Part shown: positions 17,727 to 51,836 of the stretch, one piece after another | How positions within the stretch are numbered: position 1 is the stretch's first letter | Layout of the letters: each line of letters opens with the position of its first letter | Origin: an uncultured Gammaproteobacteria bacterium | GTDB lineage: Bacteria > Pseudomonadota > Gammaproteobacteria > Steroidobacterales > Steroidobacteraceae | Direction of reading: 5' to 3' | NCBI GenBank assembly: GCA_963747145.1 | Contig: CAVVDZ010000006.1 | Location: forward strand, 311,756 to 375,755 | Length of the DNA stretch: 64,000 bases | Program-made: the position numbers and the translations under genes | Notes under the pieces: generated by a model | Database searches by the model: none | Told to the model about the DNA's origin: nothing | Seen by the model: only the letters and a program-made list of their open reading frames with translations

Positions 17727-17747
17727 CGTGATAGGCGCGAACCCGCG

Positions 17748-18544: not shown

Positions 18545-18547
18545 TCC

Positions 18548-38458: not shown

Positions 38459-38626
38459 GGCCGGTCGAGGGTCACCTGAGGCTAGCGCATTGATTATAGG
38501 CGTTATGTCACGGCGTGGCATCCCGGGCCCCGGCGGGCATTTTTTCGCGACTGCGGCAGATTGGGGCGCGGCGGCGGCCAGCCGGCGCTGACATGCTCCG
38601 AGCGTCACCGGCAGGGAGGCCAGGAC

Positions 38627-39133: not shown

Positions 39134-40137
39134 CCCCCGACAGCGCGGCTTCGATCATCCCCGGCGCGGCGTCCGCGCGGCTCGCGCCCTTCGCTCAATG
39201 CCCGGCGCCAGGCACGCGCACCCGTGCGGCCCGCGAGCAGTCCCATCATGTGGCGCGTGATCGCCCTGAGTGGCGTGCCTATCGCAAGCTCGCGTTCCGC
39301 GTAATCGCGCATCGCTGCGACGATCGCGGCGGGCTGCGGCGTCTCGAATCCGTCGTCAAGCACGGCGCGGTGCAATGCCGGCAGCAGGTAGGGATTGTGG
39401 TAAGCCTCGCGACCCAGCATCACGCCGTCCACCTGCGCGAGCTGCTCGGTCACCTGCGGCACGGTGCGCAGTCCCCCGTTCACGATCACCGTCAGTGCCG
39501 GGAAGTCGCGCTTGACCCTCCACGCGCGCCCGTAGTTGAGCGGCGGCACTTCCCGGTTCTCCTTCGGGCTGAGGCCCTTCAGCACGGCCTTGCGCGCATG
39601 CACGATCACCGTCGTGCAGCCCGCGGCCGCGACCTCGGCGACGAAAGCCTGCAGGAACCCGTAGTCGTCGTGCTCGTCGATCCCGATCCGGCATTTGACC
39701 GTGACCGGCACGCGGACGGCGTCGCGCATCGCGCGCACGCATTCGCCGACCAGGCGCGGCCTCGCCATCAGGCAGGCGCCGAAGGTCGCGCTCTGCACTC
39801 GATCGCTCGGGCAACCGACATTCAGGTTGATCTCGTCATAGCCGAAATCCGCGCCGATCGCGGCCGCACGGGCGAGTTCCCCTGGATCGCAGCCGCCGAG
39901 CTGCAGCGCGACCGGGTGCTCTGCGGCGTCGCAGGCGAGCAGGCGATCCCGGTCGCCCCGCAGCACGGCGTTCGCGACGATCATCTCCGAGTACAGCAGC
40001 ACGCGCGGCGAGAACTGGCGCAGGAAGTACCGGCAGTGGCGGTCGGTCCAGTCCATCATCGGCGCGACCGAGATCGGCCGCGGCGCCAGTGCCTTCGGCG
40101 AGTCCTCGTATCGGACGCGGATGGATTCTGCAATCAT
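39064..40137 (-). CDS. dusA: tRNA-dihydrouridine(20/20a) synthase; the 3' end is probably distorted by one inserted base (likely true stop 39117..39119)
   Basis: ISVAPMMDWTDRHCRYFLR, HPVALQLGG, YDEINLNVGCPSDRVQ, IHARKAVLKGLSPKENREVPPL. After RRALSE the annotated frame becomes Arg-rich junk. The +1 frame instead reads GASRADAAPGMIEAALSGATRHP-stop, which parallels the E. coli DusA tail. Confidence 0.88.
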   Translation of the reverse strand: MIAESIRVRYEDSPKALAPRPISVAPMMDWTDRHCRYFLRQFSPRVLLYSEMIVANAVLRGDRDRLLACDAAEHPVALQLGGCDPGELARAAAIGADFGYDEINLNVGCPSDRVQSATFGACLMARPRLVGECVRAMRDAVRVPVTVKCRIGIDEHDDYGFLQAFVAEVAAAGCTTVIVHARKAVLKGLSPKENREVPPLNYGRAWRVKRDFPALTVIVNGGLRTVPQVTEQLAQVDGVMLGREAYHNPYLLPALHRAVLDDGFETPQPAAIVAAMRDYAERELAIGTPLRAITRHMMGLLAGRTGARAWRRALSEGREPRGRRAGDDRSRAVGGYAPSMKRRKRVSPRPSRGPSRS

Positions 40138-40142
40138 GCGGC

Positions 40143-40616
40143 ATGATCGCAAGGATCGTCGTCGCCAACCAGTCGGAAGCGAGATTCTACGACTCGTCAG
40201 GACCCGCATCGCAGTTGCAGGCGGCCGGACGACTCGACAATCCGGACGCCCGGCTGCACGACCGGGACCTGAAATCCGACCGCCCGGGTCGCGTCTTCAC
40301 GAGCGCTTCCAGCGGTCACGGGCGGCGCGGAGCGGTCGCGCATCATGGTGCCGGTGGCGAGCAGAGTCCCCGCAAGCATGTCGCGACCGTCTTTGCGAAA
40401 CGGATTGTGGATGAACTCGCCACGGCAAAGCAGGGCCGGCAGTTCGACCGCCTGGTCCTGATCGCCGCACCCGCTTTCCTCGGCATCCTGCGCAAGGCCC
40501 TTCCGGAATCGCTGCAATCCGTCGTGACCGCGGAGGTCGCGAAGGACTTGCAGGACCCGACCGACGATGAAGTGCGCGAGCACATACCCGCGCAGGCCTT
40601 TCACACAAAGCCCTGA
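40143..40616 (+). CDS. Host_attach (PF10116)-like protein
   Basis: 157 aa: MIARIVVANQSEARFYDS...DLKSDRPGRVF...EQSPRKHVATVFAKRIVDELATAKQGRQFDRLVLIAAPAFLGILRKAL...EVAKDL. The pattern matches my memory of the host-attachment protein family. Confidence 0.65.
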   Translation: MIARIVVANQSEARFYDSSGPASQLQAAGRLDNPDARLHDRDLKSDRPGRVFTSASSGHGRRGAVAHHGAGGEQSPRKHVATVFAKRIVDELATAKQGRQFDRLVLIAAPAFLGILRKALPESLQSVVTAEVAKDLQDPTDDEVREHIPAQAFHTKP

Positions 40617-40624
40617 CCGCGGGA

Positions 40625-41590
40625 TCAGTTGATGGTCTTGGAGACCGGCCCGGCGTTCGCGCTTTCGGCACCGGTCGTGTCGTAGGCGCTGATCACGAAA
40701 TAATAGGTTCCCGCGGGCAGGTTCGGGACGACCGCGCTCGTCAGGCTTCCGTTCGTGATATCGACGAGGTTCGGGTAACTGCCGATCGCGGTCCCGTAGC
40801 GGATGTGATAACCGTCGAGATTGGTCAACGACGATCCGTCCGTGCGCGTCGTCGGTGGCTGCCAGGAAAGCGTGGCGCTGCCGAGCGATGCCTGTGCGAC
40901 CACGATCGTGAATTGCGGCAGCGTCGCCGTGGCGGAACCGTCGCCGACGCCGATCGTGATACTCGCGTAGTTGCCGACCGTACCGGTGCCGGGTGTGCCC
41001 GTCAGTGCGCCGTTCGTGTCGTTGAACGACGCCCACGCCGGCCGGTTCGCGATGCTGAATGTCAGCGCATCGCCATCGGCATCGTTCGCCACGGGCGTGA
41101 ATGCATACGCCTGGCCTTCACGCGCCGCCGCGGGCGGCGATCCGCTGATCGTCGGCGCCCGGTTGGATTGCGTGACGCTGACTGCGAACGGCGCCAGCGA
41201 AGCGCTCGCCTGGCCGTCGCTGACGCTGATGCGGATGTCGATGTATTCGCCGACCGCTGGCGCCGCCGGTGACCCGGAGAGTTGCCCGTTCGCGGTGCTG
41301 AAGGAGGCCCAGGCAGGCCGGTTCACGATGCTGAAAGAGAGCGGATTGCCGTCGGGGTCGGATGCCACCGGCGTGAAGCTGTAGGTCTGGCCGGTGATCA
41401 CCGAGGGCGCCGGCGCGCCCGAAATGACCGGAGCGCCATTTGCCGGCGGCGGCGGCGGCGGCGGCGGCACCCAGCAGGTTCTGCCCCTGCGCTTCCACCG
41501 ACAGCTCCAGGTATCGGCTTCGGCAACGGAGGCCAGTGTCATGGCGGTCACGAGGAATGCCACGACCGCTATCAATTTCGCCTGGCGCAT
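40625..41590 (-). CDS. Secreted protein: signal peptide, Cys-loop, poly-Pro linker, 2 He_PIG/cadherin-like repeats, C-terminal FN3
   Basis: The ATG at 41590 is preceded by GGAG. Signal peptide MRQAKLIAVVAFLVTAMTLASVAEA, then DTWSCRWKRRGRTCWVPPPPPPPP. Two ~92-aa repeats follow (GQxYxFTPxAxDxDGxxLxFSIxNRPAWASFxxxxGxLxGxP...). The FN3-like tail is ATLSWQPPTTRTDGSSLTNLDGYHIRYG...YYFVISAYDTTGAESANAGPVSKTIN. Confidence 0.75.
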   Translation of the reverse strand: MRQAKLIAVVAFLVTAMTLASVAEADTWSCRWKRRGRTCWVPPPPPPPPANGAPVISGAPAPSVITGQTYSFTPVASDPDGNPLSFSIVNRPAWASFSTANGQLSGSPAAPAVGEYIDIRISVSDGQASASLAPFAVSVTQSNRAPTISGSPPAAAREGQAYAFTPVANDADGDALTFSIANRPAWASFNDTNGALTGTPGTGTVGNYASITIGVGDGSATATLPQFTIVVAQASLGSATLSWQPPTTRTDGSSLTNLDGYHIRYGTAIGSYPNLVDITNGSLTSAVVPNLPAGTYYFVISAYDTTGAESANAGPVSKTIN

Positions 41591-41604
41591 GTCGATGACT
41601 CCGC

Positions 41605-41641
41605 TGTTGTGTGGCCGGGCTGTCGCACCGGCCACAAACAA
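41605..41641 (-). promoter_or_regulatory. Leader hairpin between the riboswitch aptamer and the RBS (candidate expression platform)
   Basis: RNA sense: GUUGUUUGUGGCCGG ugcgacagc CCGGCCACACAACA, immediately followed by GCGGAGUCAUCGAC-AUG. There is no U-tract. Confidence 0.45.
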
Positions 41642-41677
41642 CGGACGCCGAGGTAGAGCACAGACGTGCCGCCTCAA

Positions 41678-41760
41678 GTGGCAACCCCGCTATCGTGGGC
41701 CGTGCGGCCGACAGACCGGTGGCTTTGCGCCCCCGCCTTTCGACGGGTTTGCTCTGTTTC
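41678..41760 (-). promoter_or_regulatory. c-di-GMP-I (GEMM-I) riboswitch aptamer
   Basis: RNA sense: ACAGAGCAAACCCGUCGAAAGGCGGGGGCGCAAAGCCACCGGUCUGUCGGCCGCACGGCCCACGAUAGCGGGGUUGCCAC. It has the conserved GCAAACC block, a GAAA-capped P1b (CGUC/GGCG), GGGNCGCAAAGCC, CCGG, and AGCGGGGUUGCC closing P1 (GGCAA/UUGCC). This is a near block-for-block match to the V. cholerae Vc2 aptamer as I remember it. Confidence 0.85.
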
Positions 41761-41773
41761 ACTGTCGACGGGG

Positions 41774-41801
41774 ATTCTGGCGCGCGTGTCGTCGATGACA
41801 A
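41774..41801 (-). promoter_or_regulatory. Candidate sigma-70 promoter driving the riboswitch leader
   Basis: On the minus strand: TTGTCA, a 16-nt spacer, then CAGAAT. The -10 element ends about 20 nt upstream of the aptamer. Confidence 0.35.
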
Positions 41802-41864
41802 GCACGGCGTGTCGCGACCGGCAGACACTTTGCGACAGTCAGTGACGCAACAGTGCGTCGGGAC

Positions 41865-44800
41865 TTATGTCCTGGTGCGGGTGATCAGCTTGCGGTGCGG
41901 GAATCCGGACATCGGGCACGGGCGGCCGCACAGGAATCCCTGCGCATAGCCGACACCGATCTGGCGCAATGTCTCGAGCACTTCGGGAGTCTCGACGCGC
42001 TCGGCGACGGTCTCGATGCCGATCGCTTTGCCGATCTGGACGATCGCCTCGACCATGCTCCGGTCGATGCGGTCGTTGGCAACGTTCTGGACGAACTGCC
42101 CGTCGATCTTCAGGAAATGCACCGGCAGCGTGCGCAGGTAATTGAACGACGACAGTCCGCTGCCGAAATCGTCGAGCGCGATCAGGCAGCCGCGGCTCGC
42201 CATCTCGCGCATCAGGTAGCTCGCGTGCCCGAGGTTCGTGATCGCGGCCGTTTCGGTGACCTCGAAGCACAACACGCCCGGCGTCGGCTCGTGGGTCTCA
42301 AGGGTCTGGATCAGGAATTCGAGGAATCCCGGGTCGGAGAGTGTCGTTCCGGACAGGTTGACCGCGACCGTGAACTCCGCCGTCTCGACGCCATCCTTGG
42401 TGGACGGCACGATGTCGCGCAGGACCTTTTCGACGACCCAGCGATCCAGCGACGGCATCAGGTTGTAGCGCTCAGCCGCCGGGATGAACTCGTCGGGCAA
42501 CACGGTCTGGCCATTCTCGTCAAGCAGGCGCAGCAGCAATTCGTAATGCGGCCGCGCGTCCGCCGGGCCTGAGATCTTGACGATCGGCTGGAACACGATG
42601 TCGAGGCGTCCCTCATCGCGGGCGTTCGTCAGCCGCGACATCCAGCGCATCTCACGGTGGCGCGCCGAGGCGCTCGCCGGGTCGTAAACCTGCACGCGGT
42701 TGCGGCCGCCGTCCTTTGCCGAATAGCAGGCAATGTCGGCGGCCGACAGCAGCGTCGCGACGCTCTCAGTGTCGTGGTTGATTTCGACGATGCCGATGCT
42801 GGCGCCGATCTGCAAAGTGCTCGCGCCCCAGTTGAACCGCAGGTCGCGGATCGCCTGGCGAAGCATGTCGGCGATGCGCAGCGCCTGCTCCGGCGTGCAA
42901 TGCTCGAGCAGCACGCCGAACTCGTCGCCGCCGAGGCGCGCCAGCACGTCGTTGGCGCGCACGCGGGTCTGCAGCAGGCCCGTGACCTGGCGCAACAGCT
43001 GGTCGCCGGCCGGATGGCCGCAGGTGTCGTTCACGACCTTGAACTGGTCAAGGTCCACATAGACCATCGCATGGCGGATGTTGTGGTCCGCGCGCGCGGT
43101 TTCCAGCGCGACATTGAGCCGGCTCTCGAACTCGCGGCGGTTGATCAGCCCGGTCAGTGCGTCGTGCGCCGCCTGGTAGGACAACAGGCGCTTCATCCGG
43201 CGCTCGCGGCTGACATCGCTGAAGACCATCACCGCGCCGGCCGTGTTTCCATTGCGATCGCGGATCGGTGCCACCGTCGCCTGGATCGGCACCTCGGCAC
43301 CGCTCCTGCTCACGAGCACCGTCTGGTCGGCAAGGCTGAGCGGCTCGCCGGTCACGAGCGCGCGGCTCACGGGGTCGTCGATCGGCGCCTGGCTGCCGTC
43401 GGTGACCAGCTTGACGACGACCGTGACATTGCGGCCACAGGCCTCGCGGGAATCCCAGCCGGTCAGCTTCTCGGCGATCGGATTCACGTAGTCGATCGTC
43501 CCGGCGCGATCGGTCGTGATCACCGCGTCTGCGATCGACTGCAGTGTGACCTCAGCGCGCTCCTTCTGCTCGTAGAAGCGCTGCTCAGCGCGCTTGCGCT
43601 CCGTGATGTCCGTGACCGTTCCCTCGAAACCGGTCGGCTGGTTGCGCTCGTCGCGGTTGAGCCGCGCGTTCTCCGTGATCGTGATGATCGTGCCGTCCTT
43701 GCGCTTCAGGTCGTACTCGGTCTCGACCAGCTCGCCCTCGGTGATCAGCCGGTCGATCAGCCGGTGGCGGGTCTCGGGCACGACATACAGCGTCTCGGTC
43801 GAGCCGATGGCGCGCAGTTCCTCGAGCGAGGCATAGCCCAGCATCTCGATCAGCGCCGGGTTGGCCGACAGCAGGTAACCCTCCAGCGTGACCTGGTAGA
43901 CGCCCTCGACGACATTGTCGAAGAGGCCGCGGAACCGCCGTTCGCTTTCCCGCAGCGCGTCCTCGCTGCTGCGCCGCTCGATCGCGATGCGCGCGAGCTG
44001 GGCCATGCGTCCGACCAGTTCGAGGTCGCGCCGCGATGGCATGCGCGTGCGCTTCAGGTAGGTTGCGAATGTGCCGAGCGTGCGGCCATCGGCCCCGGTG
44101 ATCGGCGTCGACCAGCAGGCATGCAGGCCGGCCCGCGCGGCCGCGTCGCGGCGATGTTCCCACAGCGCGTCCTTCGCGATGTCCGGGACGATGATCTGGC
44201 GCTGCAGCGCCACTGCTGCGGCGCAGGATCCGAAGCGGATCTCGGCAGGGACATTGTCCATCAGCGCGACATACTCGCGCGGCAGACTGGGACCGGCCGC
44301 ATGGGTCAGCGTCCGCTTCACCGGGTCATACAGCCGGATGCAGCAGACCGCGTCCGGCAGCACGCGTTCGACGACCTCGGTGATCGCCACCAGCGCGCCC
44401 GTCAGCGGCTCGTTCGACGCGATCTTCTCGAAAGCGCGCCGTTCGCCTGTGCTGATCAGCTCGGCCCTCTTGCGCTCGGTGATGTCGATGATGCTGGCTC
44501 GGATCAGGCTGCCATTGGAACTCGGCAGCCGCACGAAACGAACTTCGCAGGGCATTACATTGCCGTCGGCATCGCGGTGCAGCCACTCGAAGACCGGCGC
44601 GCCGCCCGACAGCGCCTCTTCGACATAGCCGCGGCTGATGCCGAATGACGGCGTACCATCCGCCTGCAAGGGCGGGCTGACCGACGCCGGCCCGATGCTC
44701 AGGAGCTTCTCGCGGGTCATCTTGAAGAATTCGGCCGCGTTCTCGTTGCAGTCCACGAAGCGGCCGGACTCGACGTCCAGCACGACGACCGCCTCGGGCG

Positions 44801-45551
44801 CGTTTTCGACCAGCACGCGGTAGCGGGCCTCGCTGTCCTTCAGCGCGTCCTCGGCCTTGGACCGCTCGGCCATGTCGCGCACGCAGATGATGTAGGTCGG
44901 GCGGCGCTTGGTCAGCATCTTGCTGACCAGGACCTCGGCCGGCATCAGGTCCCCACGCTGGTGCTTTGCGACCACTTCGCGTGCCGCCAGGTCGTAGTGC
45001 GTGTTTTCCTGGGACGCCGCCAGGTCATCGAGCGTGCGGCCGATGTCGCCGCCGACCGCGATCTGCGGCAGCAGCACGTCCAGCGTCTGCGATAGCACGT
45101 CGCTCTGACGGATGCCGAAGAAGCGTTCCGCGGTGCGGTTGACGCTTTCGATCTGCCCGCGGTAGTCGCAGGAAATGATCCCGTCCTTGACGTGATCGAG
45201 TATCGCCTGCAGCTTCGCGACGCTCTCCCGCTCGACCTTTTCCGTGATCGCCGTCGCCTCGTCCGAGGCGAGCCGCATGACGGTCTCGAGGCTCGTGCGT
45301 TCGTTCTCGAAAATGTCGTACTGGTGGGTAACGATCGTCAGCAGCTTGCGCAGCCGCATCTTGCCGTCGGTGTCGGCGGCTTCGAGCAGCTGGCGCTCCA
45401 GCAGGGGGTGGAGGTCATCGGCGCGGCGCTCATGCTCCGCCGCGGGCTCCGCTACGGCTGTCGGCACAGGCGCAGCCACGGGCGTCGCGACTGCCTTCGG
45501 CGCAGGCGCTTTGAGCCGCACGACATTGCCCGGATCTTTCTTGGCCACCAT
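41865..45551 (-). CDS. Multidomain c-di-GMP turnover protein: PAS-PAS-GAF-PAS-PAS-GGDEF-EAL
   Basis: 1228 aa with repeated PAS-type blocks, each ending ...DITERKRAE. A GAF-like segment (RLYDPVKRTLTHAAG...CWSTPITGADGRTLGTFATY). GGDEF domain with intact RLGGDEFGVLL and DLDQFKVVNDTCGH. EAL domain with YELLLRL, NLSG, FEVTE, ALDDFGSGLSSFNYL, LKIDGQFV, AERVET and GYAQGF. Confidence 0.9.
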   Translation of the reverse strand: MVAKKDPGNVVRLKAPAPKAVATPVAAPVPTAVAEPAAEHERRADDLHPLLERQLLEAADTDGKMRLRKLLTIVTHQYDIFENERTSLETVMRLASDEATAITEKVERESVAKLQAILDHVKDGIISCDYRGQIESVNRTAERFFGIRQSDVLSQTLDVLLPQIAVGGDIGRTLDDLAASQENTHYDLAAREVVAKHQRGDLMPAEVLVSKMLTKRRPTYIICVRDMAERSKAEDALKDSEARYRVLVENAPEAVVVLDVESGRFVDCNENAAEFFKMTREKLLSIGPASVSPPLQADGTPSFGISRGYVEEALSGGAPVFEWLHRDADGNVMPCEVRFVRLPSSNGSLIRASIIDITERKRAELISTGERRAFEKIASNEPLTGALVAITEVVERVLPDAVCCIRLYDPVKRTLTHAAGPSLPREYVALMDNVPAEIRFGSCAAAVALQRQIIVPDIAKDALWEHRRDAAARAGLHACWSTPITGADGRTLGTFATYLKRTRMPSRRDLELVGRMAQLARIAIERRSSEDALRESERRFRGLFDNVVEGVYQVTLEGYLLSANPALIEMLGYASLEELRAIGSTETLYVVPETRHRLIDRLITEGELVETEYDLKRKDGTIITITENARLNRDERNQPTGFEGTVTDITERKRAEQRFYEQKERAEVTLQSIADAVITTDRAGTIDYVNPIAEKLTGWDSREACGRNVTVVVKLVTDGSQAPIDDPVSRALVTGEPLSLADQTVLVSRSGAEVPIQATVAPIRDRNGNTAGAVMVFSDVSRERRMKRLLSYQAAHDALTGLINRREFESRLNVALETARADHNIRHAMVYVDLDQFKVVNDTCGHPAGDQLLRQVTGLLQTRVRANDVLARLGGDEFGVLLEHCTPEQALRIADMLRQAIRDLRFNWGASTLQIGASIGIVEINHDTESVATLLSAADIACYSAKDGGRNRVQVYDPASASARHREMRWMSRLTNARDEGRLDIVFQPIVKISGPADARPHYELLLRLLDENGQTVLPDEFIPAAERYNLMPSLDRWVVEKVLRDIVPSTKDGVETAEFTVAVNLSGTTLSDPGFLEFLIQTLETHEPTPGVLCFEVTETAAITNLGHASYLMREMASRGCLIALDDFGSGLSSFNYLRTLPVHFLKIDGQFVQNVANDRIDRSMVEAIVQIGKAIGIETVAERVETPEVLETLRQIGVGYAQGFLCGRPCPMSGFPHRKLITRTRT

Positions 45552-45702
45552 GACCCCACGCAGGCCTGCGCCGCACTCAACGAATGCGACGTAATGCAGC
45601 GATGCTAGGGGATCGACTACGGTCTGAACGTGACGGCGTTCGCGATTCGACCGGTGCCAATTCGTGACCGGCGACGCGATATCCGGGGCCCGCTACCGGG
45701 AG

Positions 45703-45736
45703 GCCGCCCGGCCCCGCATTGCGCGGCCGGGGCGGC
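45703..45736 (-). terminator. GC-rich stem-loop just 3' of typA
   Basis: GCCGCCCCGGCC gcgcaatgc GGGGCCGGGCGGC on the minus strand, an imperfect stem starting 4 nt after the typA stop. There is no U-tract. Confidence 0.4.
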
Positions 45737-45739
45737 AAT

Positions 45740-47554
45740 TCAGCCGGCGCGTTCCGCCCTCTTGCGCTGCCCCTCGTTCAGGTGCCGCTTGCGCAAACGG
45801 ATATTCTTCGGAGTGACTTCCACGAGCTCGTCGTCGACGATGTACTCCATCGCCTGTTCGAGCCCCATGCGAATGGGCGGCGTCAGCAGCACATTCTCGT
45901 CCTTGCTCTGCGTGCGGATGTTGGTGAGCTTCTTGCCCTTCAGCGGATTGACGACCATGTCGCCCTCACGGCTGGTCTCGCCGACGATCTGGCCCTCGTA
46001 GACCAGGTCGCCGGGCCCGACGAAGAGCTTGCCGCGTTCCTGCAGGTTGAAGAGCGCATAGGCGAGCACCGGGCCCCGTCCATTCGAGATCATCACGCCG
46101 GCCGTGCGCTCCGTCAGATTCCTGTCGACCACCGGCCCGAAATGATCGAACACGTGGTACATGAGCCCGGTTCCGCTGGTCATCGTGCGGAAATCCGTCT
46201 GGAACCCGATCATGCCGCGCGATGGGATCTTGTAGTCGAGCCGCACGCGGCCCTTGCCGTCGGGGATCATGTTGGCGAGGTCCGCACCGCGCGCTCCAAG
46301 CGCCTCCATGACGGCGCCCTGTCCGGTTGTTTCGATATCGACCGTGAGCTGTTCCCAGGGCTCGACGGGCTCCCCGCCCTCCTCTTTGACCACGACGCGC
46401 GGGCGCGAAACCGCGAGTTCGTAGCCTTCGCGGCGCATGTTCTCGATCAGGATGCCGAGGTGCAGTTCTCCGCGTCCATAGACGACGAAGCGGTCGGGAT
46501 CGTCGGTTTCCTCGACCCGCAGCGCGACATTCGCAAGCGTTTCCCGCAACAGCCGTTCGCGCAGCTGGCGGCTCGTGACGAATTTTCCTTCCTGGCCGAA
46601 CAAGGGCGAAGTATTCGTCTCGAATGTCATGCTGATGGTCGGTTCGTCCACGACCAGCGGCGGCAGCGCTTCCGGAGCCGCGGGATCGCAGATCGTGTCC
46701 GAAATCTTCGGCGCCTCAATCCCTGAGAACGCGATGATGTCGCCGGCGCGCGCTTCCTCGGCCTCGATGCGCTCGAGTCCCAGGAATCCGAACACCTGCC
46801 CTACGCGCTCATTGCGGATCGAGCCGTCGCGGCCGACGACCGCGATCGGCATGCCGCGCCGGATCGTGCCGCGCCGGATGCGCCCGATGCCGATCGCACC
46901 GACGTAGCTCGAGTAATCGAGCTGGCTGATCTGCAGCTGCAATGGCGCATCGATGTCCACGTCCGGCGCCGGGCAGCGCGAGACGATCGTCTCGAACAGC
47001 GGTGTCATGTCCGCGGCGAGATGCTCGGGATCGAGTCCTGCGACGCCGCGCAATGCCGAGGTATAGACGACCGGAAAGTCGAGCTGCTTCTCATGCGCTC
47101 CCAGGCGATCGAACAGGTCGAAAGTCTGGTTCAGCACCCACTCAGGGCGCGCCTCGGGGCGATCGACCTTGTTGATCACGACGATCGGCGAAAGCCCGTG
47201 TGCAAAAGCCTTCTGCGTCACGAAGCGGGTCTGCGGCATGGGACCGTCCACGGCGTCCACGAGCAGCAGCACGCAGTCCACCATCGACAGCACGCGCTCG
47301 ACCTCGCCGCCGAAATCGGCGTGGCCGGGGGTATCCACAATGTTGATGCGGTAGTCGCCCCAGCGGATCGCGGTGTTCTTCGCGAGGATGGTGATGCCGC
47401 GCTCGCGCTCGAGCGCGTTCGAATCCATCACGCGATCGGTCACGGGCTTGCGTGCATCGAGCGTGCCCGACTGGCGCAGCAGCTTGTCGACGAGCGTGGT
47501 CTTGCCATGGTCGACGTGCGCGATGATCGCGATGTTGCGTAGATTCTGGATCAC
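45740..47554 (-). CDS. typA: Translational GTPase TypA/BipA
   Basis: 604 aa from a GTG start: [47 protein letters not shown]. Confidence 0.95.
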
Positions 47555-47694
47555 GGGGACGTGGCGCGGTGCAAAAGGGCCGCGATCTTACACCAGTTCG
47601 CGGGGCCGCTTTGATGACCCGGCGAAACCGCCAGAAAGCAGTTCATGTGTCATCGCCGATAGCCCTCTTAACTTATTGTTATTACAACGGAATC

Positions 47695-48129
47695 CTACCC
47701 GTCTTGTGCCGGGGGTTCCGGCAACGCTTCTACCGGCGGTGGGACCGTTATGGGGCTCACAACGGTGAATGGCAGGGTCACGGTACGGGTCCGTCGATCG
47801 CCGCTCATATGCAGCCCCAGACGCACTGTCAGCAGCCAGTCGCCAGGCGACTTTGGGACCAGGTTCACAAAAAGCTGGTTGCCGCCCGACGGGCTGGTGG
47901 CGGGCAACATCCTGGGAGCGTAATCCGTGACCTGCAGGCCTTCGTCGCCTTCGACCGCGATCTCGACGCCCGCCGTAGGAACGCCCACACGCACGTCCAG
48001 CAGGATCTGGGCGGGCACGTCCATCTGGAGCTCCTGTGCCTGCACGACCTTGACCTCGACCGGCAGCTCCGGGGTCGCGCAGGCGGCGCAGGCTGCGGCG
48101 ATCGCGAGCAGGCTCCGGAACGGATTCAC
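47695..48129 (-). CDS. Small hypothetical lipoprotein, translationally coupled to srkA
   Basis: The GTG at 48129 is preceded by GGAGcaatc and overlaps the srkA stop (GTGA). N-terminus: [20 protein letters not shown] (lipobox-like). The body is beta-rich and the tail is Pro-rich. The long upstream extension in the track ORF overlaps srkA and looks spurious. Confidence 0.5.
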
Positions 48130-49172
48130 GATTGCTCCAGCGTCATGATCTGCTCCTCCAACTCCGCCACATGGCGCTCCCAGAAACGCACTTCGCCGAA
48201 CCATGGAAATGCGAGCGGAAATGCCGGATCGTGCCAGCGGCGCGCGAGCCAGGCCGCGTAATGAATCATCCTGAGCGCGCGCAGGGACTCGATCAAGGAG
48301 GTCTCGATGGGATCGAGATTCGCAAATTGCGAATAGCCCTCGAGGATGTCCGCGAGCTGGGCGCGCATCTCGGCGGCATTGCCCGCAAGCAGCATCCACA
48401 GGTCCTGGATTGCGGGGCCTGTCATGCAGTCGTCGAGGTCCACGAAATGCGGCCCGGCCGCGGTCCACAGCACATTGTTGCGGTGGCAGTCGCCATGGAT
48501 GCGGAGCTGCCGCAGCGGGCCCGCCGCCTCGAATCGCGCCTCCACCAGGTCCAGCAACTCGCCGCTGACGAGGTCGTAGCGATTCGCGATGTAATCGGCC
48601 ATCAGGCCGCCATCCAGCAGATAGTCGACCGACTGGCGCCCCATCGCATCGACCGAATATCGTCCGCGATGCGCGAATCGTCCCGCCGCTCCCACCATGT
48701 GGATGCGCCCGAGGAAACGTCCGATCCACTGCCGGTCATCCGGCGTGCCGAGTTCGGGCCATTGGCCGCCGCGGCGCGGGTAGATCGCGATGCGGAATCC
48801 GGCGAATACGGGCACCGGTCCATCGCCCAGTTTGTCGCGGTTCAACGGCTCGAGCGGCGCGATGACAGGGATCTCGGCCGCCGCCAGTTCGCGCGCGAAG
48901 GCGTGTTCCTCGGCAATGGCTTCATCCGTCCAGCGCCCCGGCCGGTAGAACTTGATCACGACGGGGTCGGTGTCTTCGAGGCCGACCTGGAACACGCGAT
49001 TCTCGTAGCTGCCGAGCGCGAGCGCACGGCCATCGCTGTGAAACCCGGCGGCCTCCACGGCATCGATCACGGCATCCGGCGATAGCTGCGCGAACGGAAT
49101 CTCGGTGCCGGGTGCCGGATCATCTTCCACCGGGGCAACATAGCGTCCGGCTGCCGACGACACCAGCCGCAT
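48126..49172 (-). CDS. srkA: Stress response Ser/Thr kinase SrkA/RdoA (YihE family)
   Basis: LALGSYENRVFQVG, VIKFYRPGRWT, RIHGDCHRNNVLW, FVDLDDCMTGPAIQDLWMLL, AFPLAFPWF. These are collinear with E. coli YihE as I remember it. Confidence 0.85.
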   Translation of the reverse strand: MRLVSSAAGRYVAPVEDDPAPGTEIPFAQLSPDAVIDAVEAAGFHSDGRALALGSYENRVFQVGLEDTDPVVIKFYRPGRWTDEAIAEEHAFARELAAAEIPVIAPLEPLNRDKLGDGPVPVFAGFRIAIYPRRGGQWPELGTPDDRQWIGRFLGRIHMVGAAGRFAHRGRYSVDAMGRQSVDYLLDGGLMADYIANRYDLVSGELLDLVEARFEAAGPLRQLRIHGDCHRNNVLWTAAGPHFVDLDDCMTGPAIQDLWMLLAGNAAEMRAQLADILEGYSQFANLDPIETSLIESLRALRMIHYAAWLARRWHDPAFPLAFPWFGEVRFWERHVAELEEQIMTLEQS

Positions 49173-49173
49173 G

Positions 49174-49207
49174 AAAAAAGCCCCGGCAGCTTCAAGGCTG
49201 CCGGGGC
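49174..49207 (-). terminator. Rho-independent terminator after the 5-repeat adhesin gene
   Basis: On the minus strand: GCCCCGGCAGC cttgaa GCTGCCGGGGC, followed by TTTTTT. It is an 11-bp perfect stem about 20 nt after the stop at 49227. The U-tract ends 1 nt before the srkA ATG. Confidence 0.8.
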
Positions 49208-49226
49208 CCCTGGTTCCCGAACCGGA

Positions 49227-51001
49227 CTACGGAATGGTCTTGGAGACGGGGCTCGAATCGGCGCTTTCCACGCCCGCGGAATCAAAGGATGCGAGCACGA
49301 AGAACCAGGTGCCCGATGCCAGGTTTTCGACCATGTAGCTCGTCACGCCCGGATTGTTGATCGAGATCGTGGTCGGGTAATTGCCGGCGGCATTGCCATA
49401 GCGGACCTTGTAGCCGGCCAGGTCCGTGAGCGGCGAACCATCCGCGTGAGTCGTCGGCGGCGTCCAGCTGAGCGTCGCCGTACCGTTGGCGGACTGCTGG
49501 ACCGTAATCGAGAACGCGGCGAGCGAAGCCTGCAGCGTGCCATCGCTGGCCGTGATCACGACGTTCGGATAGCTGCCGATCGTGCCTGCGCCCGGCGTGC
49601 CTGACAGCCTGCCGGTGCCGGTATCGAATGCGGCCCACGAAGGCTTGCCCGTGATGCTGAAGCTGATCGCATCGCCATCCGGGTCATTCGCGGTCGGGAT
49701 GAACGAATAGGCTTGCCCGGCGACGACCGAGGTGGCCGGCGCGCCTGAAATCGTCGGCGGGCGATTGGCCTGGTCCACGGTGATCGAGAACGCCGCCAGC
49801 GCGGTGTTTGCCATGCCGTCACCGACACTGATGCGGATGTCCACGTACTCGCCGACCGCGCTCGATGCCGGCGTGCCCGACAGGCGGCCGGTCGTCGCGC
49901 TGAAAGTCGCCCAGGTCGGCCGGTTCACGATGCTGAAGCTGATCGGGTTGCCATCCGGATCGGAAGCCGTCGGCGTGAACGAGTACGCCTGGCCGCTGGT
50001 CACGGTCGCTGCAGGCGTTCCACTGATCGTCGGGGCGCGATTGGGTGCGACGGTGATCGTGAACGAGCCCAGCGATGCGGACAGGCTGCCGTCGCTCGCG
50101 GAGATCACGATACCGGCATAGCTGCCGGCACTACCCGCCGGCGGCGTGCCGGACAGGCGCCCATTGCTGGTGCTGAAGCTCGCCCAGGACGGCTTGTTGC
50201 TGATGCTGAAGCTCAACGGATTGCCGTCGGGATCGCTCGCGGTCGGCGTGAATGCGTAGGCGATGGCTTCGCGCCCGGCCGTGGACGGGCTGCCGCCGAT
50301 CACTGGCGGACGGTTGGCCGCAGTCACGGTAATCGCAAATGCCGGCAGCGCAGCGCTTGCCGCGCCGTCGGAAACGCTGATCCGGATGTTCGAGTAAGTC
50401 CCGGCTGCGCCAGAGCCTGGTGTGCCGGACAGGCGTCCCGTGGCCGCACTGAACGCCGCCCAGGCCGGTCTGCCCGGAAATCGAGAATGTCAGCGCCTGC
50501 CCGTCAGGATCGGAGGCCGCCGGTGTGAACGCGTACGCCTGCCCTTCGACGACCGATATCGGAGCGCTGCCAGAGATCACGGGCGGGCGGTTGGCCGGCG
50601 GCGTCACGGGCGCCGCATTCGACGACGATGCGGAAGGCGTTGCCCTGCGTGACGTTGACGCTGTCCCTGACGGAAATCTGCACCGCATCGTAGGTGCCGA
50701 CATTCGCGTCGGCGGGCGTACCGGACAACCTGCCCGTCGCGCTGTCGAACGACGCCCAGGCGGGCTGGTTCGCGATCTCGAATGTCAGCGGATCGTTTTC
50801 GGGGTCGCTCGCCGTCGGCGTGACCTGGAAAGGGTTGCCGGCCATGATCGACGACTCGGTCGCCACCGTGGAGATTGTCGGCGCCTGATTGACGGGCGGT
50901 GGCGGAGTCGCTGCCGCTGCGTCGCTTTTCTGCTCGTCCCATGGGCACGCGCTCAGGGGAAGAACGAGCAGTCCGACTGCCAGGATTCTCAGCATTCTCA
51001 T
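49227..51001 (-). pseudogene. Lipoprotein with 5 He_PIG/cadherin-like repeats plus C-terminal FN3; the reading frame is interrupted twice by single inserted bases
   Basis: The gene lies in three track ORFs (50504..51001, 50131..50703, 49227..50327) that join into one protein. N-terminus: MRMLRILAVGLLVLPLSAC (lipobox). Five ~92-aa repeats follow, then ATLSWTPPTTHADGSPLTDLAGYKVRYG...WFFVLASFDSAGVESADSSPVSKTIP. The frame breaks are at about 50620 and in the CCC run at 50473..50475. Confidence 0.78.
49494..50896 (-). repeat. Five degenerate tandem coding repeats (~276 bp each, He_PIG-like modules); boundaries approximate
   Basis: The peptide pattern NR(A/P)P(T/V)ISG...GQAY(S/A)FTP(T/A)ASDPDG(N/Q/D)x(L/I)(S/T)FSIxx(R/K)P(S/T/A)WAxFxxxxGRLSGTP...(F)xITV recurs 5 times. 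Confidence 0.7.
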
Positions 51002-51072
51002 GTGGCAACCCCGCTGTCTCTCTCGAGACCGGAAGCTTTGCGTCCCCGCCTCACGACGGGTTTGCCGCTTAC
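51002..51072 (-). promoter_or_regulatory. c-di-GMP-I (GEMM-I) riboswitch aptamer abutting the start codon
   Basis: RNA sense: AAGCGGCAAACCCGUCGUGAGGCGGGGACGCAAAGCUUCCGGUCUCGAGAGAGACAGCGGGGUUGCCAC, followed directly by AUGAGAAUG. It has the same conserved blocks as the 41678..41760 copy, with a GUGA-capped P1b and a short GAGA-capped P2 (GUCUC/GAGAC). Confidence 0.85.
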
Positions 51073-51126
51073 ACTTGATTCAACGTGCCGGGATTATCGG
51101 GCCGTCATCGCGAGCGCGTGAGACCG

Positions 51127-51150
51127 CCCTGTCGTGCCACAGCGACAGGG
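51127..51150 (-). terminator. Stem-loop after the 1-repeat paralog gene
   Basis: On the minus strand, CCCUGUCG cuguggca CGACAGGG forms an 8-bp stem 20 nt after the stop at 51171. There is no U-tract. Confidence 0.35.
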
Positions 51151-51170
51151 AACATAAGAGCAAGACTTAA

Positions 51171-51836
51171 TCAGGCGATCGTCTTGGAGGCGACGTTCGA
51201 CCGCGAGCTCTCGCCGCCCGTGTCGTCATAGGCGGTGGCCGCGAAGAACCAGGTGCCGACCGTCAGGTTGTCGATCAGCTGGCTGCGCGCGCCGGGGTCT
51301 GCGACCTGAATGACGAAATTCATGTCGCTGGCCGAATTTCCATAATAGACGCGGAAGCCGGCCAGGTTGGTCAGCGGGGTGCCGTCCACGCGCTGCGTCG
51401 GGGCCTGCCAGGAAAGCGTCGCACGGCCCGCCACCGCCGCAGAGACCGTGATCCTCGACTGGTTCGAGGCCTGCGCCTTGCCGTCCGACACGGTGAAGAC
51501 CGGCGTGAACACGCCGACGTCGCCGGCGGCAGGCGTGCCCGTCAGCACGCCGGTCTGGGCCGAGAAGTTCGCCCAGGTCGGCCGATTCGAAATCGAGAAT
51601 GTCAGTGCGTCACCGTCAGCGTCGGACGCGGTCGGCGTGATCGTCAATGCGCGGCCAACCAGGACGTCGATGGAACCCGTGACCGAAATGGTCGGCGCGT
51701 GGTTGACCGCAGGCGGGGGCGGCGTGACTACCGGCGGCGGCTCGCTCGAAGTCTTTGATCCGCCTCCGCCAAAGCACGCGACCAGCGCCATCGCTGCGGT
51801 TCCGATCAGGGCAGTACGCAATGTGAATGCGATCAC
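51171..51836 (-). CDS. Lipoprotein with 1 He_PIG/cadherin-like repeat plus C-terminal FN3 (third paralog)
   Basis: The GTG at 51836 is preceded by AGAGG. N-terminus: IAFTLRTALIGTAAMALVAC (lipobox), then a Pro-rich linker. One repeat (LTITPTASDADGDALTFSISNRPTWANFSAQTGVLTGTP). FN3-like tail: ATLSWQAPTQRVDGTPLTNLAGFRVYYG...WFFAATAYDDTGGESSRSNVASKTIA. Confidence 0.75.
   Translation of the reverse strand: MIAFTLRTALIGTAAMALVACFGGGGSKTSSEPPPVVTPPPPAVNHAPTISVTGSIDVLVGRALTITPTASDADGDALTFSISNRPTWANFSAQTGVLTGTPAAGDVGVFTPVFTVSDGKAQASNQSRITVSAAVAGRATLSWQAPTQRVDGTPLTNLAGFRVYYGNSASDMNFVIQVADPGARSQLIDNLTVGTWFFAATAYDDTGGESSRSNVASKTIA

What the first reader, a model, noticed from the sequence alone, without database searches (positions are those of the whole stretch)
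40625..51836. Three-member paralogous family of He_PIG/cadherin-like plus FN3 surface proteins with modular repeat number (2, 5, 1), two of them under c-di-GMP riboswitch control
The genes at 40625..41590, 49227..51001 and 51171..51836 encode proteins with the same plan.

- **Shared plan:** an export signal (one Sec-type signal peptide, two lipoboxes), a Pro-rich linker, N copies of a ~92-aa module (GQAYxFTPxAxDPDGxxLxFSIxNRPxWAxFxxxxGxLxGTP...DG...FxIxV), and a conserved ~88-aa FN3-like tail.
- **Tail:** it reads ATLSW.PPT...DG.PLT.L.GY.(V/I)RYG...(W/Y)(F/Y)F...(A/S)(Y/F)D..G.ES....(V)SKTI(N/P/A) at the extreme C-terminus in all three.
- **Regulation:** the 2-repeat and 5-repeat genes have GEMM-I leaders. 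The 1-repeat gene, immediately upstream of the 5-repeat gene's riboswitch, has none that I can recognise.

This looks like a c-di-GMP-regulated adhesin or matrix-protein set. I do not know of a characterised representative, and the invariant ...SKTI-x C-terminus could be a sorting or anchoring signal.
Basis: partly seen in the sequence, partly recalled or inferred. Interest (0 to 1): 0.7.

Follow-up and report, generated by a model that had tools for sequence, protein, structure and literature searches.

The report
Riboswitch-controlled exported Ig-repeat protein family

Summary
The observation largely holds. Genes A (40625..41590), B (49227..51001) and C (51171..51836) share one plan: export signal, Pro-rich linker, 2/5/1 He_PIG modules, terminal FN3. 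c-di-GMP-I aptamers precede A and B; none precedes C.

Corrections:
- B is not one ORF here. It needs three frames because of single-G insertions at 50620 and in 50473-50475. galE, map and glnD are also split, and an intact colinear ortholog exists, so assembly error is likelier than a pseudogene.
- "SKTI-x" is the last beta strand of the FN3 fold. It varies across the family, so a sorting signal is not supported.
- B's aptamer scores best with Rfam's "GGC" model but keeps the canonical A. A's aptamer has A at the G20-equivalent position, which could mean c-di-GMP/cGAMP bispecificity.

Family context, from 80 genomes (Steroidobacteraceae, Woeseiaceae and others):
- 70 of 100 assessable family genes have a c-di-GMP-I aptamer upstream, and 10 have two.
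- 80 of 83 aptamers found precede family genes.

This supports c-di-GMP control of a surface or secreted protein family. An adhesin role and the direction of switching are inferred. In B the start codon abuts the aptamer, which suggests translational repression by ligand. I rate this a new member of a known kind, of moderate interest.

The parts
41774..41801 (-). Promoter-like site (TTGTCA-16-CAGAAT) about 10 nt upstream of aptamer A
   Evidence: Weak evidence: 1 site found against 1.3 expected by chance. The position fits an aptamer at the 5' end of the transcript.
41677..41763 (-). c-di-GMP-I (GEMM-I) aptamer of gene A. It has a long P2 and a GAAA tetraloop, and carries A instead of G at the G20-equivalent position.
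   Evidence: Rfam RF01051, 74.2 bits against cut-off 35. Own model R1, 104 bits. At alignment column 14 the counts are G 81, A 3, C 1, and the window has A.
41591..41676 (-). Expression platform of A. It has two hairpins. The second (about 41612..41655) covers part of the SD (GGAG, 8 nt before ATG 41590).
   Evidence: The platform is poorly conserved among orthologs, so the direction of switching is unresolved.
40625..41590 (-). Gene A, 321 aa. Order of parts: Sec signal peptide; basic Cys-loop CRWKRRGRTC; P8 linker; 2 He_PIG modules (40898..41437); FN3 tail (40628..40897).
   Evidence: The TTG at 41677 is in frame, but ATG 41590 matches the ortholog starts and has an SD.
40613..40628 (-). Terminator-like hairpin at the stop codon of A
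   Evidence: consensus scan only.
41865..45551 (-). PAS/GAF-GGDEF-EAL protein (1228 aa) directly upstream of aptamer A; a conserved neighbour
   Evidence: Pfam: EAL 1.6e-65, GGDEF 7.5e-45. The same gene sits directly upstream of the A-type gene in L001, L002, L004, L007, L008, L009, L011 and L012.
51000..51075 (-). c-di-GMP-I-clan aptamer of gene B. It has a short P2 hairpin and a GUGA tetraloop. Its 3' end (..GCCACAUG) contains the start codon. The pocket nucleotides are canonical.
   Evidence: Rfam RF03167, 66.7 bits against cut-off 59. R1, 78.9 bits. It reads ACGCAAAG, not ACGCGAAG. The start codon abuts the aptamer.
49227..51001 (-). Gene B. Conceptually 590 aa: lipoprotein signal (LPLSAC), PPPP linker, 5 He_PIG modules (about 49500..50890) and FN3 tail (49230..49499). 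In this sequence two 1-nt insertions interrupt it.
   Evidence: The repaired protein is colinear with the intact L014 ortholog: 74% identity and 1 gap in 591 columns.
50620..50620 (-). Extra G (first frameshift in B, FRIVV|NAAPV)
   Evidence: DNA alignment with L014; frame analysis.
50473..50475 (-). GGG run holding one extra G (second frameshift in B, FSISG|RPAW)
   Evidence: DNA alignment with L014; frame analysis.
49179..49199 (-). Terminator-like hairpin with a T-run, 28 nt after the stop codon of B
51171..51836 (-). Gene C, 221 aa: lipoprotein signal (LVAC), Pro-rich linker, 1 He_PIG module (51444..51707) and FN3 tail (51174..51443). It has no riboswitch.
   Evidence: Two-domain model with pLDDT 93.3. 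Ig/cadherin-like + FN3 structural neighbours.

Best explanation
A, B and C are three paralogs of a very large, uncharacterised family of exported proteins. Each has a Sec or lipoprotein signal, a Pro-rich linker, a variable number (1 to about 9) of He_PIG/cadherin-like Ig modules and one terminal FN3 domain. No catalytic domain is present.

In Steroidobacteraceae, Woeseiaceae and related Gammaproteobacteria this family is the usual cargo of c-di-GMP-I riboswitches. A and B each have their own aptamer. C, like many family genes that sit just upstream of a riboswitch-controlled sibling, has none.

Shown: the architecture, the aptamers and the family-wide association.

Inferred:
- The proteins are cell-surface or extracellular rods, anchored by lipid in B and C and possibly by a basic Cys-loop in A. 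They probably act in adhesion or surface organisation, so their amount on the surface would be set by c-di-GMP.
- For B-type leaders, the start codon is the last 3 nt of the aptamer, and the only SD-like run (GGGG) lies in the 3' strand of P2. Ligand binding should therefore block 30S loading, making an OFF switch.
- For A-type leaders the direction is open.
- The two frameshifts in B are assembly errors, not biology.
For: Architecture:
- Pfam He_PIG matches and the repeat alignment.
- FN3 fold of the tail.
- Two-domain model with pLDDT 93. Its neighbours are NCAM Ig-FN3, the adhesins SraP and SiiE, dystroglycan and protocadherin.

Family size:
- More than 4816 homologs at E<=1e-5.
- 2309 cluster representatives at E<=1e-10 for the tail alone.

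Aptamers:
- Rfam scores.
- 85 aptamers with 97% of cells paired, against about 40% for slid controls, and 16 of 22 pairs showing compensatory changes.

Association:
- 83 aptamers in about 840 kb of 80 loci, of which 80 lie upstream of family genes.
- 61 genes have an aptamer directly upstream, 9 have one upstream of a broken frame, 30 have none and 8 are cut by a contig end.
- 10 genes have tandem aptamers.

Synteny: the order C, aptamer, B, srkA, typA, GGDEF-EAL is conserved in L014, and GGDEF-EAL, aptamer, A is conserved in 8 genomes.

Abutting start codons followed by genuine signal peptides occur in B, L014, L076, L010, L025, L004 and L003.

Assembly errors:
- galE repaired by deleting 1 nt aligns to a solved GalE through residue 324.
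- map and glnD are split between frames.
- Broken family genes occur only in 5 of the 21 "MFD...contig_" MAG loci and in none of the other 59 loci. My hand calculation gives a hypergeometric p of about 8e-4.

Precedent:
- C. difficile class I c-di-GMP riboswitches act mostly as OFF switches, one of them on a calcium-binding putative adhesin (PMC6200980).
- B. thuringiensis CbpA is a surface protein under a c-di-GMP riboswitch (PMC7423583).
- Tandem c-di-GMP-I arrangements are common (PMC9481103).
Against: - There is no functional data for any family member. Ig-like and FN3 modules are generic and also occur as spacers or carbohydrate-binding modules in enzymes and S-layer-type proteins.
- 30% of family genes, including C and those of the cultured Steroidobacter and Peristeroidobacter strains in the fetched loci, lack an aptamer.
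- The direction of regulation is not established. One family member (L051, Nitrospirota) has a terminator whose 5' arm is the aptamer's 3' strand, which implies an ON switch. MFE folding did not reproduce the aptamers or reveal clear alternative pairings, and A-type platforms are poorly conserved.
- Signal peptides and lipoboxes were judged by eye. No predictor was run.
- The assembly-error reading of B rests on analogy, not on reads.
Confidence: 0.7

Rival explanations
1. Gene B is a genuine pseudogene, inactivated by two real frameshifts. The organism would then have only two functional paralogs and a riboswitch left without a working gene.
For: The sequence as given needs three frames. Surface-protein paralogs are often lost. 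The closest relative, L002, has lost the riboswitch and one repeat of its A-type gene, so the locus does change over evolutionary time.
Against: Apart from the two 1-nt insertions, the gene is perfectly colinear with intact orthologs. It has no stops within the corrected frame, no further decay, and 74-77% identity. Housekeeping genes in the same window (galE, map, glnD) carry the same kind of defect. Similar breaks are seen only in "MFD contig_" MAGs.
Confidence: 0.12
2. Aptamer A is not a strict c-di-GMP sensor. With A at the G20-equivalent position it would bind 3',3'-cGAMP as well as, or instead of, c-di-GMP, so A and B would answer to different signals.
For: Window A has A where 81 of 85 related aptamers have G. 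The Vc2 G20A mutant binds c-di-GMP (KD 53 nM) and cGAMP (KD 120 nM), and natural GEMM-Ib riboswitches carry this change (PMC6140456). Breaker's group uses the same nucleotide to predict c-AMP-GMP variants (PMC9481103).
Against: All close orthologs of aptamer A have G, so this is a single-lineage change in an error-prone assembly. G20A alone gives bispecificity, not cGAMP selectivity. No cGAMP synthase was looked for or seen in the window. The aptamer also has a second unusual base (G at column 38, where A occurs in 81 of 85) whose effect is unknown.
Confidence: 0.2
3. The proteins are not adhesins. They could be passive surface spacers or coat proteins, or binders of polysaccharide or another substrate (CBM-like cadherin/FN3 modules), serving nutrient capture rather than attachment.
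For: Foldseek neighbours include accessory domains of a fucoidan hydrolase as well as adhesins. The host lineages are polymer degraders by reputation (own knowledge). No adhesive tip domain can be recognised, only repeats plus FN3.
Against: Control by c-di-GMP, the conserved neighbouring GGDEF-EAL gene and the lipid anchoring all fit surface-lifestyle functions. No enzyme genes were found consistently linked, although this was not examined systematically.
Confidence: 0.3
4. The C-terminal ..SKTI-x is a sorting or anchoring signal.
For: 91 of 97 full-length homologs end exactly 28 residues after the GT(W/Y)YF motif, so the C-terminus is held at a fixed position.
Against: These residues form the last beta strand (residues 82-89) of a confidently predicted FN3 sandwich. 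The motif varies (SKAI, TKVV, YKVI and others), and so does the last residue. The same FN3 subtype occurs internally in arrays of up to 20 copies. There is no hydrophobic helix with a basic tail of the kind found in sortase, exosortase or rhombosortase signals.
Confidence: 0.05
5. The frameshifts in B are phase-variation switches (slipped-strand mispairing) or programmed +1 frameshift sites.
For: Surface proteins are classic targets of phase variation, and one site lies in a G run.
Against: The run is only GGG and the other site is GTCGTCG, both far shorter than known contingency tracts. Two independent shifts would be needed. Unrelated housekeeping genes show the same defect. Orthologs have no tract at these places.
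Confidence: 0.02

Closest known systems
Bacillus thuringiensis/cereus CbpA (Cap) collagen-binding surface protein under a c-di-GMP-I riboswitch (Bc2), and the triple-tandem Bc3-5 riboswitch
   Same: A c-di-GMP-I aptamer lies in the 5' leader of a gene for an exported, repeat-built surface protein. Tandem aptamers occur (PMC7423583, PMC4759541).
   Different: CbpA is a Gram-positive, sortase-anchored LPXTG protein with collagen-binding and Cna-B domains. The window's proteins are lipoproteins or Sec-secreted He_PIG + FN3 proteins of Gammaproteobacteria, with no detectable homology to CbpA domains.
Clostridioides difficile c-di-GMP riboswitch regulon (class I Cdi-1-2 upstream of the calcium-binding putative adhesin CD630_27970; class II upstream of the adhesins CD2831 and CD3246)
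   Same: Several surface proteins in one genome each have their own c-di-GMP riboswitch. Class I aptamers act mostly as OFF switches (PMC6200980).
   Different: The protein families, cell envelope and anchoring differ. Regulation in C. difficile is mainly transcriptional, whereas B-type leaders here place the start codon inside the aptamer.
Vibrio cholerae Vc1 (gbpA) and Vc2 (tfoY) GEMM-I riboswitches
   Same: Canonical GEMM-I in a gammaproteobacterium. Vc1 controls a secreted attachment factor, and both ON and OFF logic are known (cited in PMC6200980).
   Different: GbpA is a chitin-binding LPMO-type protein. V. cholerae has single genes under this control, not an expanded paralogous family.
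GEMM-Ib (3',3'-cGAMP) riboswitches of Geobacter
   Same: Same fold, and aptamer A shares the signature G20-to-A substitution (PMC6140456, PMC9481103).
   Different: The other selectivity determinants were not examined. Orthologous aptamers have G. No cGAMP pathway is evident here.
Giant Ca-binding repeat adhesins (SiiE, LapA/RTX type) and staphylococcal SraP
   Same: Rods of Ig-like/cadherin-like modules. SiiE and SraP appear among the structural neighbours. c-di-GMP governs LapA surface display (PMC3032545).
   Different: Those proteins are very large, and LapA and SiiE are T1SS substrates with C-terminal secretion signals. c-di-GMP controls LapA post-translationally through LapD/LapG. The window's proteins are 220-590 aa with N-terminal Sec or lipoprotein signals and are controlled at the RNA level.

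Membership tests
c-di-GMP-I riboswitch (Rfam RF01051, GEMM-I) | Covariance-model score above the curated gathering score | tested here: met
   Aptamer A scores 74.2 bits against 35. Aptamer B matches the clan (66.7 bits with RF03167); its lower-scoring overlapping match is not shown. Both score 79-104 bits with model R1.
c-di-GMP-I riboswitch (Rfam RF01051, GEMM-I) | Two-hairpin architecture supported by covariation | tested here: met
   Across 85 related aptamers, 97.1% of cells are paired against 36-44% for slid controls, and 16 pairs have compensatory changes.
c-di-GMP-I riboswitch (Rfam RF01051, GEMM-I) | Ligand-contacting nucleotides G20, A47 and C92 (Vc2 numbering) | tested here: inconclusive
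   Aptamer B has G, A, C. Aptamer A has A, A, C, i.e. G20 is replaced by A. I mapped the positions onto Vc2 numbering from the Rfam consensus and my own knowledge.
c-di-GMP-I riboswitch (Rfam RF01051, GEMM-I) | Located in the 5' leader, on the same strand as a downstream ORF | tested here: met
   Aptamer A ends 86 nt before ATG 41590. Aptamer B ends at the ATG itself.
c-di-GMP-I riboswitch (Rfam RF01051, GEMM-I) | Binds c-di-GMP and changes expression | not testable with these tools
   Needs in-line probing or ITC, and reporter assays.
c-di-GMP-I-GGC variant (Rfam RF03167) | G in place of the intercalating A47 (consensus ACGCGAAG) | tested here: not met
   Aptamer B and every other locus hit that scored best with this model read ACGCAAAG. 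The short P2 hairpin, not the pocket, explains the better score. I do not file B under this variant.
GEMM-Ib (cGAMP riboswitch) | A at position 20 together with demonstrated cGAMP selectivity | tested here: inconclusive
   A20 is present in aptamer A only. Selectivity cannot be tested here. Orthologs have G.
He_PIG / bacterial cadherin-like Ig domain (Pfam PF05345; also Big_9, Cadherin_4) | Pfam score above the gathering cut-off | tested here: met
   76.6, 118.3, 44.1 and 40.6 bits against a cut-off of 24.
Fibronectin type III domain (Pfam PF00041) | Sequence-profile match above the cut-off | tested here: inconclusive
   B scores 28.6 bits (cut-off 25). A scores 21.7, below the cut-off. C has no hit.
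Fibronectin type III domain (Pfam PF00041) | Seven-strand beta-sandwich fold superposable on solved FN3 domains | tested here: met
   pLDDT 89. The top 50 PDB matches are all FN3 or FN3-derived, at probability 1.00 and TM up to 0.69.
Bacterial lipoproteins (B and C) | Lipobox [LVI][ASTVI][GAS]C after a hydrophobic h-region near the N-terminus | tested here: met
   B has ..LLVLPLSAC and C has ..AAMALVAC. Many orthologs have ..LAGC or ..LSAC. This is a pattern match only; no predictor or lipidation data.
Sortase / exosortase / rhombosortase C-terminal sorting signals | Short motif followed by a hydrophobic helix and a basic tail at the C-terminus | tested here: not met
   The protein ends 1 residue after FN3 strand G. 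No hydrophobic stretch is present.
T1SS RTX/LapA-type repeat adhesins | No N-terminal Sec signal; RTX repeats and a C-terminal T1SS signal; adjacent ABC/MFP/TolC genes | tested here: not met
   N-terminal Sec or lipoprotein signals are present. Pfam finds no RTX or other non-Ig domains. The neighbours are srkA, typA, a GGDEF-EAL gene and galE.

The most novel reading that the evidence does not exclude
The He_PIG + FN3 family would be the principal c-di-GMP-riboswitch regulon of Steroidobacterales, Woeseiales and related sediment and soil Gammaproteobacteria. It would form a tunable set of lipid-anchored and secreted rods of different lengths (1 to about 9 modules). Their surface density would be set post-transcriptionally by c-di-GMP, through an unusual sub-class of GEMM-I in which the ribosome-binding site and start codon are built into the aptamer. 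Singlet, tandem and G20A (cGAMP-responsive) versions would give different paralogs different thresholds or signals.
Probability: 0.25. Interest if true: 0.6.

Novelty: new member of a known kind. Interest (0 to 1): 0.45.

Why it matters
c-di-GMP riboswitches that control surface proteins are known from a few Firmicutes and from Vibrio. The protein family found here is uncharacterised but very common, with thousands of members. It occurs in lineages that are abundant in soils and marine sediments; Woeseiales make up 1-22% of retrieved sediment 16S sequences (PMC7082342).

The tight link gives the family a concrete, testable regulatory context. About 70% of family genes follow an aptamer, and nearly all aptamers in the sampled loci precede family genes. 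It also supplies dozens of natural GEMM-I variants for riboswitch biochemistry: aptamers whose 3' end contains the start codon, tandem pairs and an A20 variant.

The finding also carries a practical warning. Indels in long-read MAGs can turn repeat-protein genes into apparent pseudogenes.

Tried and rejected
- A homolog search with the 87-aa tail alone returned only 25 short fragments and was not informative about distribution. The full-length query and the exhaustive search were used instead.
A narrower alignment, A2, worked.
Its closest relative in the loci is an uncultured gammaproteobacterial MAG, L002, with 95-98% amino-acid identity in the flanking genes.
- Tandem Repeats Finder sees no DNA-level repeat in the three genes. 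The modules are old and diverged, not recent duplications, so recombinational instability is not supported.
- Two GC3 frame-plot scripts written to find all frameshifts in the window were too crude. Most flagged junctions were ordinary operon boundaries, such as pyrH-frr-uppS-cdsA. Only glnD, and then map, emerged as split.
- MFE folding of both leaders and alignment of A-type expression platforms gave no convincing alternative-pairing model. ON or OFF for A is left open.
- I considered and rejected filing aptamer B as the "GGC" variant, the SKTI sorting-signal idea, phase variation or programmed frameshifting, and membership in the T1SS adhesins. Reasons are in the membership test and the rival explanations.

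Full report
**1. What is in the sequence**

- Gene A (40625..41590, 321 aa) starts with a Sec-type signal peptide (MRQAKLIAVVAFLVTAMTLASVAEA|D). It continues with a short basic Cys-loop (CRWKRRGRTC), eight prolines, two repeat modules and a ~90-aa tail.
- Gene C (51171..51836, 221 aa) has a lipobox (..MALVAC), a Pro-rich linker, one module and the tail.
- Pfam He_PIG matches are far above the cut-off: 76.6 bits for A, 118.3 and 44.1 bits for the two main pieces of B, and 40.6 bits for C, against a cut-off of 24. Big_9 and Cadherin_4 give secondary matches.
- The eight modules align over about 91 residues with 63% mean column identity.
- They are not similar enough at the DNA level for Tandem Repeats Finder, so they are old modules and not recent duplications.

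**2. The tail**

- Pfam fn3 passes its cut-off only for B (28.6 bits against 25). A is just below (21.7) and C has no hit.
- A structure predicted from 28 tails has pLDDT 89. Its top 50 PDB neighbours are all FN3 or FN3-derived domains, at probability 1.00 and TM up to 0.69.
- The residues ..VSKTI form the last strand of the sandwich (E82-89).
- Among 120 full-length homologs SKTI is only the commonest ending (46), next to SKAI, SKTV, TKVV, YKVI and others. The final residue varies (Q, P, R, N and so on). 91 of 97 proteins end exactly 28 residues after the GT(W/Y)YF motif.
- An exhaustive search with the tail finds 2309 cluster representatives at E<=1e-10. It also finds the same FN3 subtype inside giant proteins, in arrays of up to 20 copies.
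- The protein therefore simply stops at the domain boundary. A sorting signal is not supported.
- A model of C's module plus tail (pLDDT 93.3) shows two beta-sandwiches. Its neighbours are Ig-FN3 tandems of cell-adhesion molecules, the bacterial adhesins SraP and SiiE, dystroglycan, protocadherin and accessory domains of a fucoidanase.

**3. Gene B is interrupted in this sequence**

- 49227..51001 is 1775 nt. The coding information runs through three frames (ORF pieces 50504..51001, 50131..50703 and 49227..50327).
- Joining the frames at FRIVV|NAAPV and FSISG|RPAW gives a 590-aa lipoprotein (..LPLSAC) with five modules and the tail.
- This protein aligns end to end with an intact ORF in a Steroidobacteraceae MAG (L014): 74% identity and one gap in 591 columns. 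It also aligns with intact metagenomic proteins P0031 and P0038 at 72-77%.
- The DNA alignment shows exactly one extra G at 50620 and one in the GGG run 50473-50475.
- Three lines of evidence point to assembly error rather than decay:
  - There is no other damage in the gene.
  - Conserved genes in the same window have the same defect. galE needs one base removed at 52934 to align with solved UDP-glucose 4-epimerases through residue 324. The Peptidase_M24 profile of map is split between two frames. glnD lacks its N-terminal part in frame.
  - Among the 80 related loci, riboswitch-preceded family genes with broken frames occur only in five of the 21 "MFD...contig_" MAG loci and in none of the other 59. 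From my own knowledge, not checked here, the MFD MAGs are long-read assemblies. The window's closest relative, L002, is one of them.

**4. The riboswitches**

- Rfam finds c-di-GMP-I at 41677..41763(-) with 74.2 bits. It finds a clan member at 51000..51075(-) that scores best with the "c-di-GMP-I-GGC" model, at 66.7 bits against a cut-off of 59.
- The diagnostic position of that variant is not met. The window and all similar hits in other loci read ACGCAAAG, like the canonical family, and not ACGCGAAG. What they share with the GGC model is a short P2 hairpin.
- Aptamer A differs from 81 of 85 relatives by having A at the position just 5' of the two-base-pair helix, the G20 equivalent.
  - This is the change that makes Vc2 bind both c-di-GMP (53 nM) and cGAMP (120 nM), and it marks natural GEMM-Ib riboswitches (PMC6140456, PMC9481103).
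  - Its orthologs have G and the assembly is error-prone, so I treat this as a lead and not a conclusion.
- No aptamer precedes C, even with all filters off.
- A promoter-like site lies 10 nt upstream of aptamer A. Terminator-like hairpins follow the stops of A and B (consensus matches only).

**5. The family-wide association**

- A search with protein A finds more than 4816 homologs at E<=1e-5. Most are 450-560 aa, and sources name them only "hypothetical" or "putative Ig domain-containing protein". Those with taxon labels come mainly from Steroidobacteraceae or Gammaproteobacteria MAGs. No NCBIfam model comes near its cut-off.
- Using the tail, I fetched 80 loci from 80 species-level genomes. 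These include Steroidobacteraceae, Woeseiaceae, other Gammaproteobacteria, a few other phyla, and the isolates Steroidobacter agaridevorans, S. flavus and Peristeroidobacter soli.
- Rfam found c-di-GMP-I-clan aptamers in 11 of the first 13 loci.
- A covariance model built from 15 of them found 83 aptamers in about 840 kb.
  - The structure is well supported: 97.1% of cells are paired against 36-44% for slid controls, and 16 of 22 pairs have compensatory changes.
- Counting tail-bearing ORFs gives 108 family genes in the loci:
  - 61 have an aptamer directly upstream.
  - 9 have one upstream of a broken frame.
  - 30 have none.
  - 8 are cut by a contig end.
- That is 70 of 100 assessable genes. 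80 of the 83 aptamers lie upstream of family genes, and ten genes have two aptamers in tandem.
- Module number ranges from 1 to about 9, with or without a riboswitch.
- Family genes without an aptamer often sit, like C, just upstream of a riboswitch-controlled sibling (L014, L076, L010, L021, L022, L026, L061).

**6. Neighbourhood**

- L014 keeps the order C, aptamer, B, srkA, typA, GGDEF-EAL.
- The 1228-aa PAS/GAF-GGDEF-EAL gene lies directly upstream of the A-type gene in eight further genomes.
- A Host_attach/baeRF-family gene (40089..40616, +) and a cyclase-FHA gene are also conserved neighbours.
- L002, the closest relative, has an A-type gene with one module, no Cys-loop and no room for an aptamer. 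The locus is evolutionarily plastic.

**7. How it probably works**

Shown: exported Ig-like/FN3 proteins with no catalytic domain, and c-di-GMP-class aptamers in their leaders.

Inferred:
- The proteins are surface or extracellular rods. B and C would be lipid-anchored. Neither has Asp at +2, which in E. coli would mean sorting to the outer membrane (own knowledge). A would be secreted, perhaps tethered through its conserved basic Cys-loop; the loop is present in all nine A-type orthologs examined.
- Leaders come in two kinds.
  - In the "abutting" kind, the ATG or TTG that opens a genuine signal peptide is the last codon-length stretch of the aptamer (..AGCGGGGUUGCCACAUG). This kind includes B, L014, L076, L010, L025, L004 and L003. 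The only SD-like run, GGGG, lies in the 3' strand of P2, 7 nt upstream.
  - A 30S subunit needs this stretch single-stranded, so a ligand-locked aptamer should block initiation. I therefore predict that B is a translational OFF switch, at about 60-65%.
  - This runs against the intuitive idea of an adhesin induced by c-di-GMP. It has precedent: C. difficile class I riboswitches are mostly OFF, including one on a calcium-binding putative adhesin (PMC6200980).
  - In the "distant" kind, which includes A, the start lies 75-190 nt downstream. A's SD is partly buried in a 17-bp hairpin, but the platform is not conserved. I leave the direction open.
- One family member in a Nitrospirota MAG (L051) has a terminator that competes with the aptamer's 3' strand, which would make an ON switch. 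Both logics probably exist within the family.
- Tandem aptamers are expected to sharpen the response (PMC9481103, PMC4759541).

**8. Comparison with what is known, and verdict**

- The regulatory principle is known: a c-di-GMP riboswitch in front of a surface-protein gene, sometimes in tandem. Examples are B. thuringiensis CbpA, C. difficile adhesins and V. cholerae GbpA (PMC7423583, PMC6200980).
- The cargo family, its size, its lineage distribution and the tightness of the link appear not to have been described. No paper in the held library connects riboswitches with He_PIG proteins, Steroidobacter or Woeseia, but that library is incomplete.
- I classify the finding as a new member of a known kind, of moderate interest (0.45).

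Noticed in passing
window 52934 (galE 52013..~53006, +); 17580..18489 (map, +); 18456..21148 (glnD, +): Conserved housekeeping genes are split between reading frames by apparent 1-nt indels. galE is repaired by deleting one C. The Peptidase_M24 profile of map is divided between two frames. The N-terminal part of glnD is out of frame. The assembly looks indel-rich, so any "pseudogene" in this window should be distrusted.
   Followed up: partly
window 41753 (minus strand; 11th base of aptamer A, 41677..41763): Aptamer A has A where 81 of 85 related aptamers have G (the G20 equivalent). This is the substitution that gives c-di-GMP/cGAMP bispecificity in Vc2 and marks GEMM-Ib. A second rare base (G instead of A in GGGACGC) lies 23 nt downstream.
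   Followed up: partly
window 41474..41503 (gene A residues 30-39), and A-type orthologs in L001, L003, L004, L005, L007, L008, L009, L012: All A-type proteins have a short K/R-rich loop bracketed by two cysteines (C-x7-10-C, e.g. CRWKRRGRTC or CKYKGRRNLC) directly after the signal-peptide cleavage site. It may tether the protein to anionic surface polymers. B- and C-type proteins have lipoboxes instead.
   Followed up: partly
window 41865..45551 (-), and L001, L002, L004, L007, L008, L009, L011, L012: A 1228-aa PAS/GAF-GGDEF-EAL protein is conserved directly upstream of the riboswitch-controlled A-type gene in at least eight other genomes. So an enzyme that makes or breaks c-di-GMP sits next to a c-di-GMP-sensing RNA.
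   Followed up: partly
L002:5454-6267: In the closest relative (95-98% amino-acid identity in the flanking genes), the A-type gene has one module, no Cys-loop and only about 85 nt of upstream spacer with no aptamer. This looks like recent loss of the riboswitch together with a module.
   Followed up: no
loci L021, L033, L042, L055, L072, L075, L077 and others, about 30 nt after the aptamer: A recurrent GTCGTCA / GCCGTCA motif follows a small variable hairpin downstream of many aptamers, especially the first of a tandem pair. It may be a shared element of the expression platform.
   Followed up: no
L051:4157-4290: The family gene in a Nitrospirota MAG has a classical intrinsic terminator whose 5' arm is the aptamer's 3' strand (gccgccgga-GATATT-tccggcggc-TATTTTTG). 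This implies an ON switch there, unlike the architecture in which the start codon abuts the aptamer.
   Followed up: no
window 40089..40616 (+): A Host_attach / baeRF family 12 protein (Pfam 1.5e-35) is encoded convergently next to gene A. It is conserved in that position in six related loci.
   Followed up: partly
window 17594..17689 (-): A t44 RNA (Rfam RF00127, 69.2 bits) lies between map and the gene on the minus strand. I take it to be the usual rpsB leader, but the downstream gene was not checked.
   Followed up: no
window 37520..38857 (-): A class III nucleotidyl cyclase fused to an FHA domain lies near the locus and is conserved in related loci. It is another second-messenger gene in the neighbourhood.
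   Followed up: no
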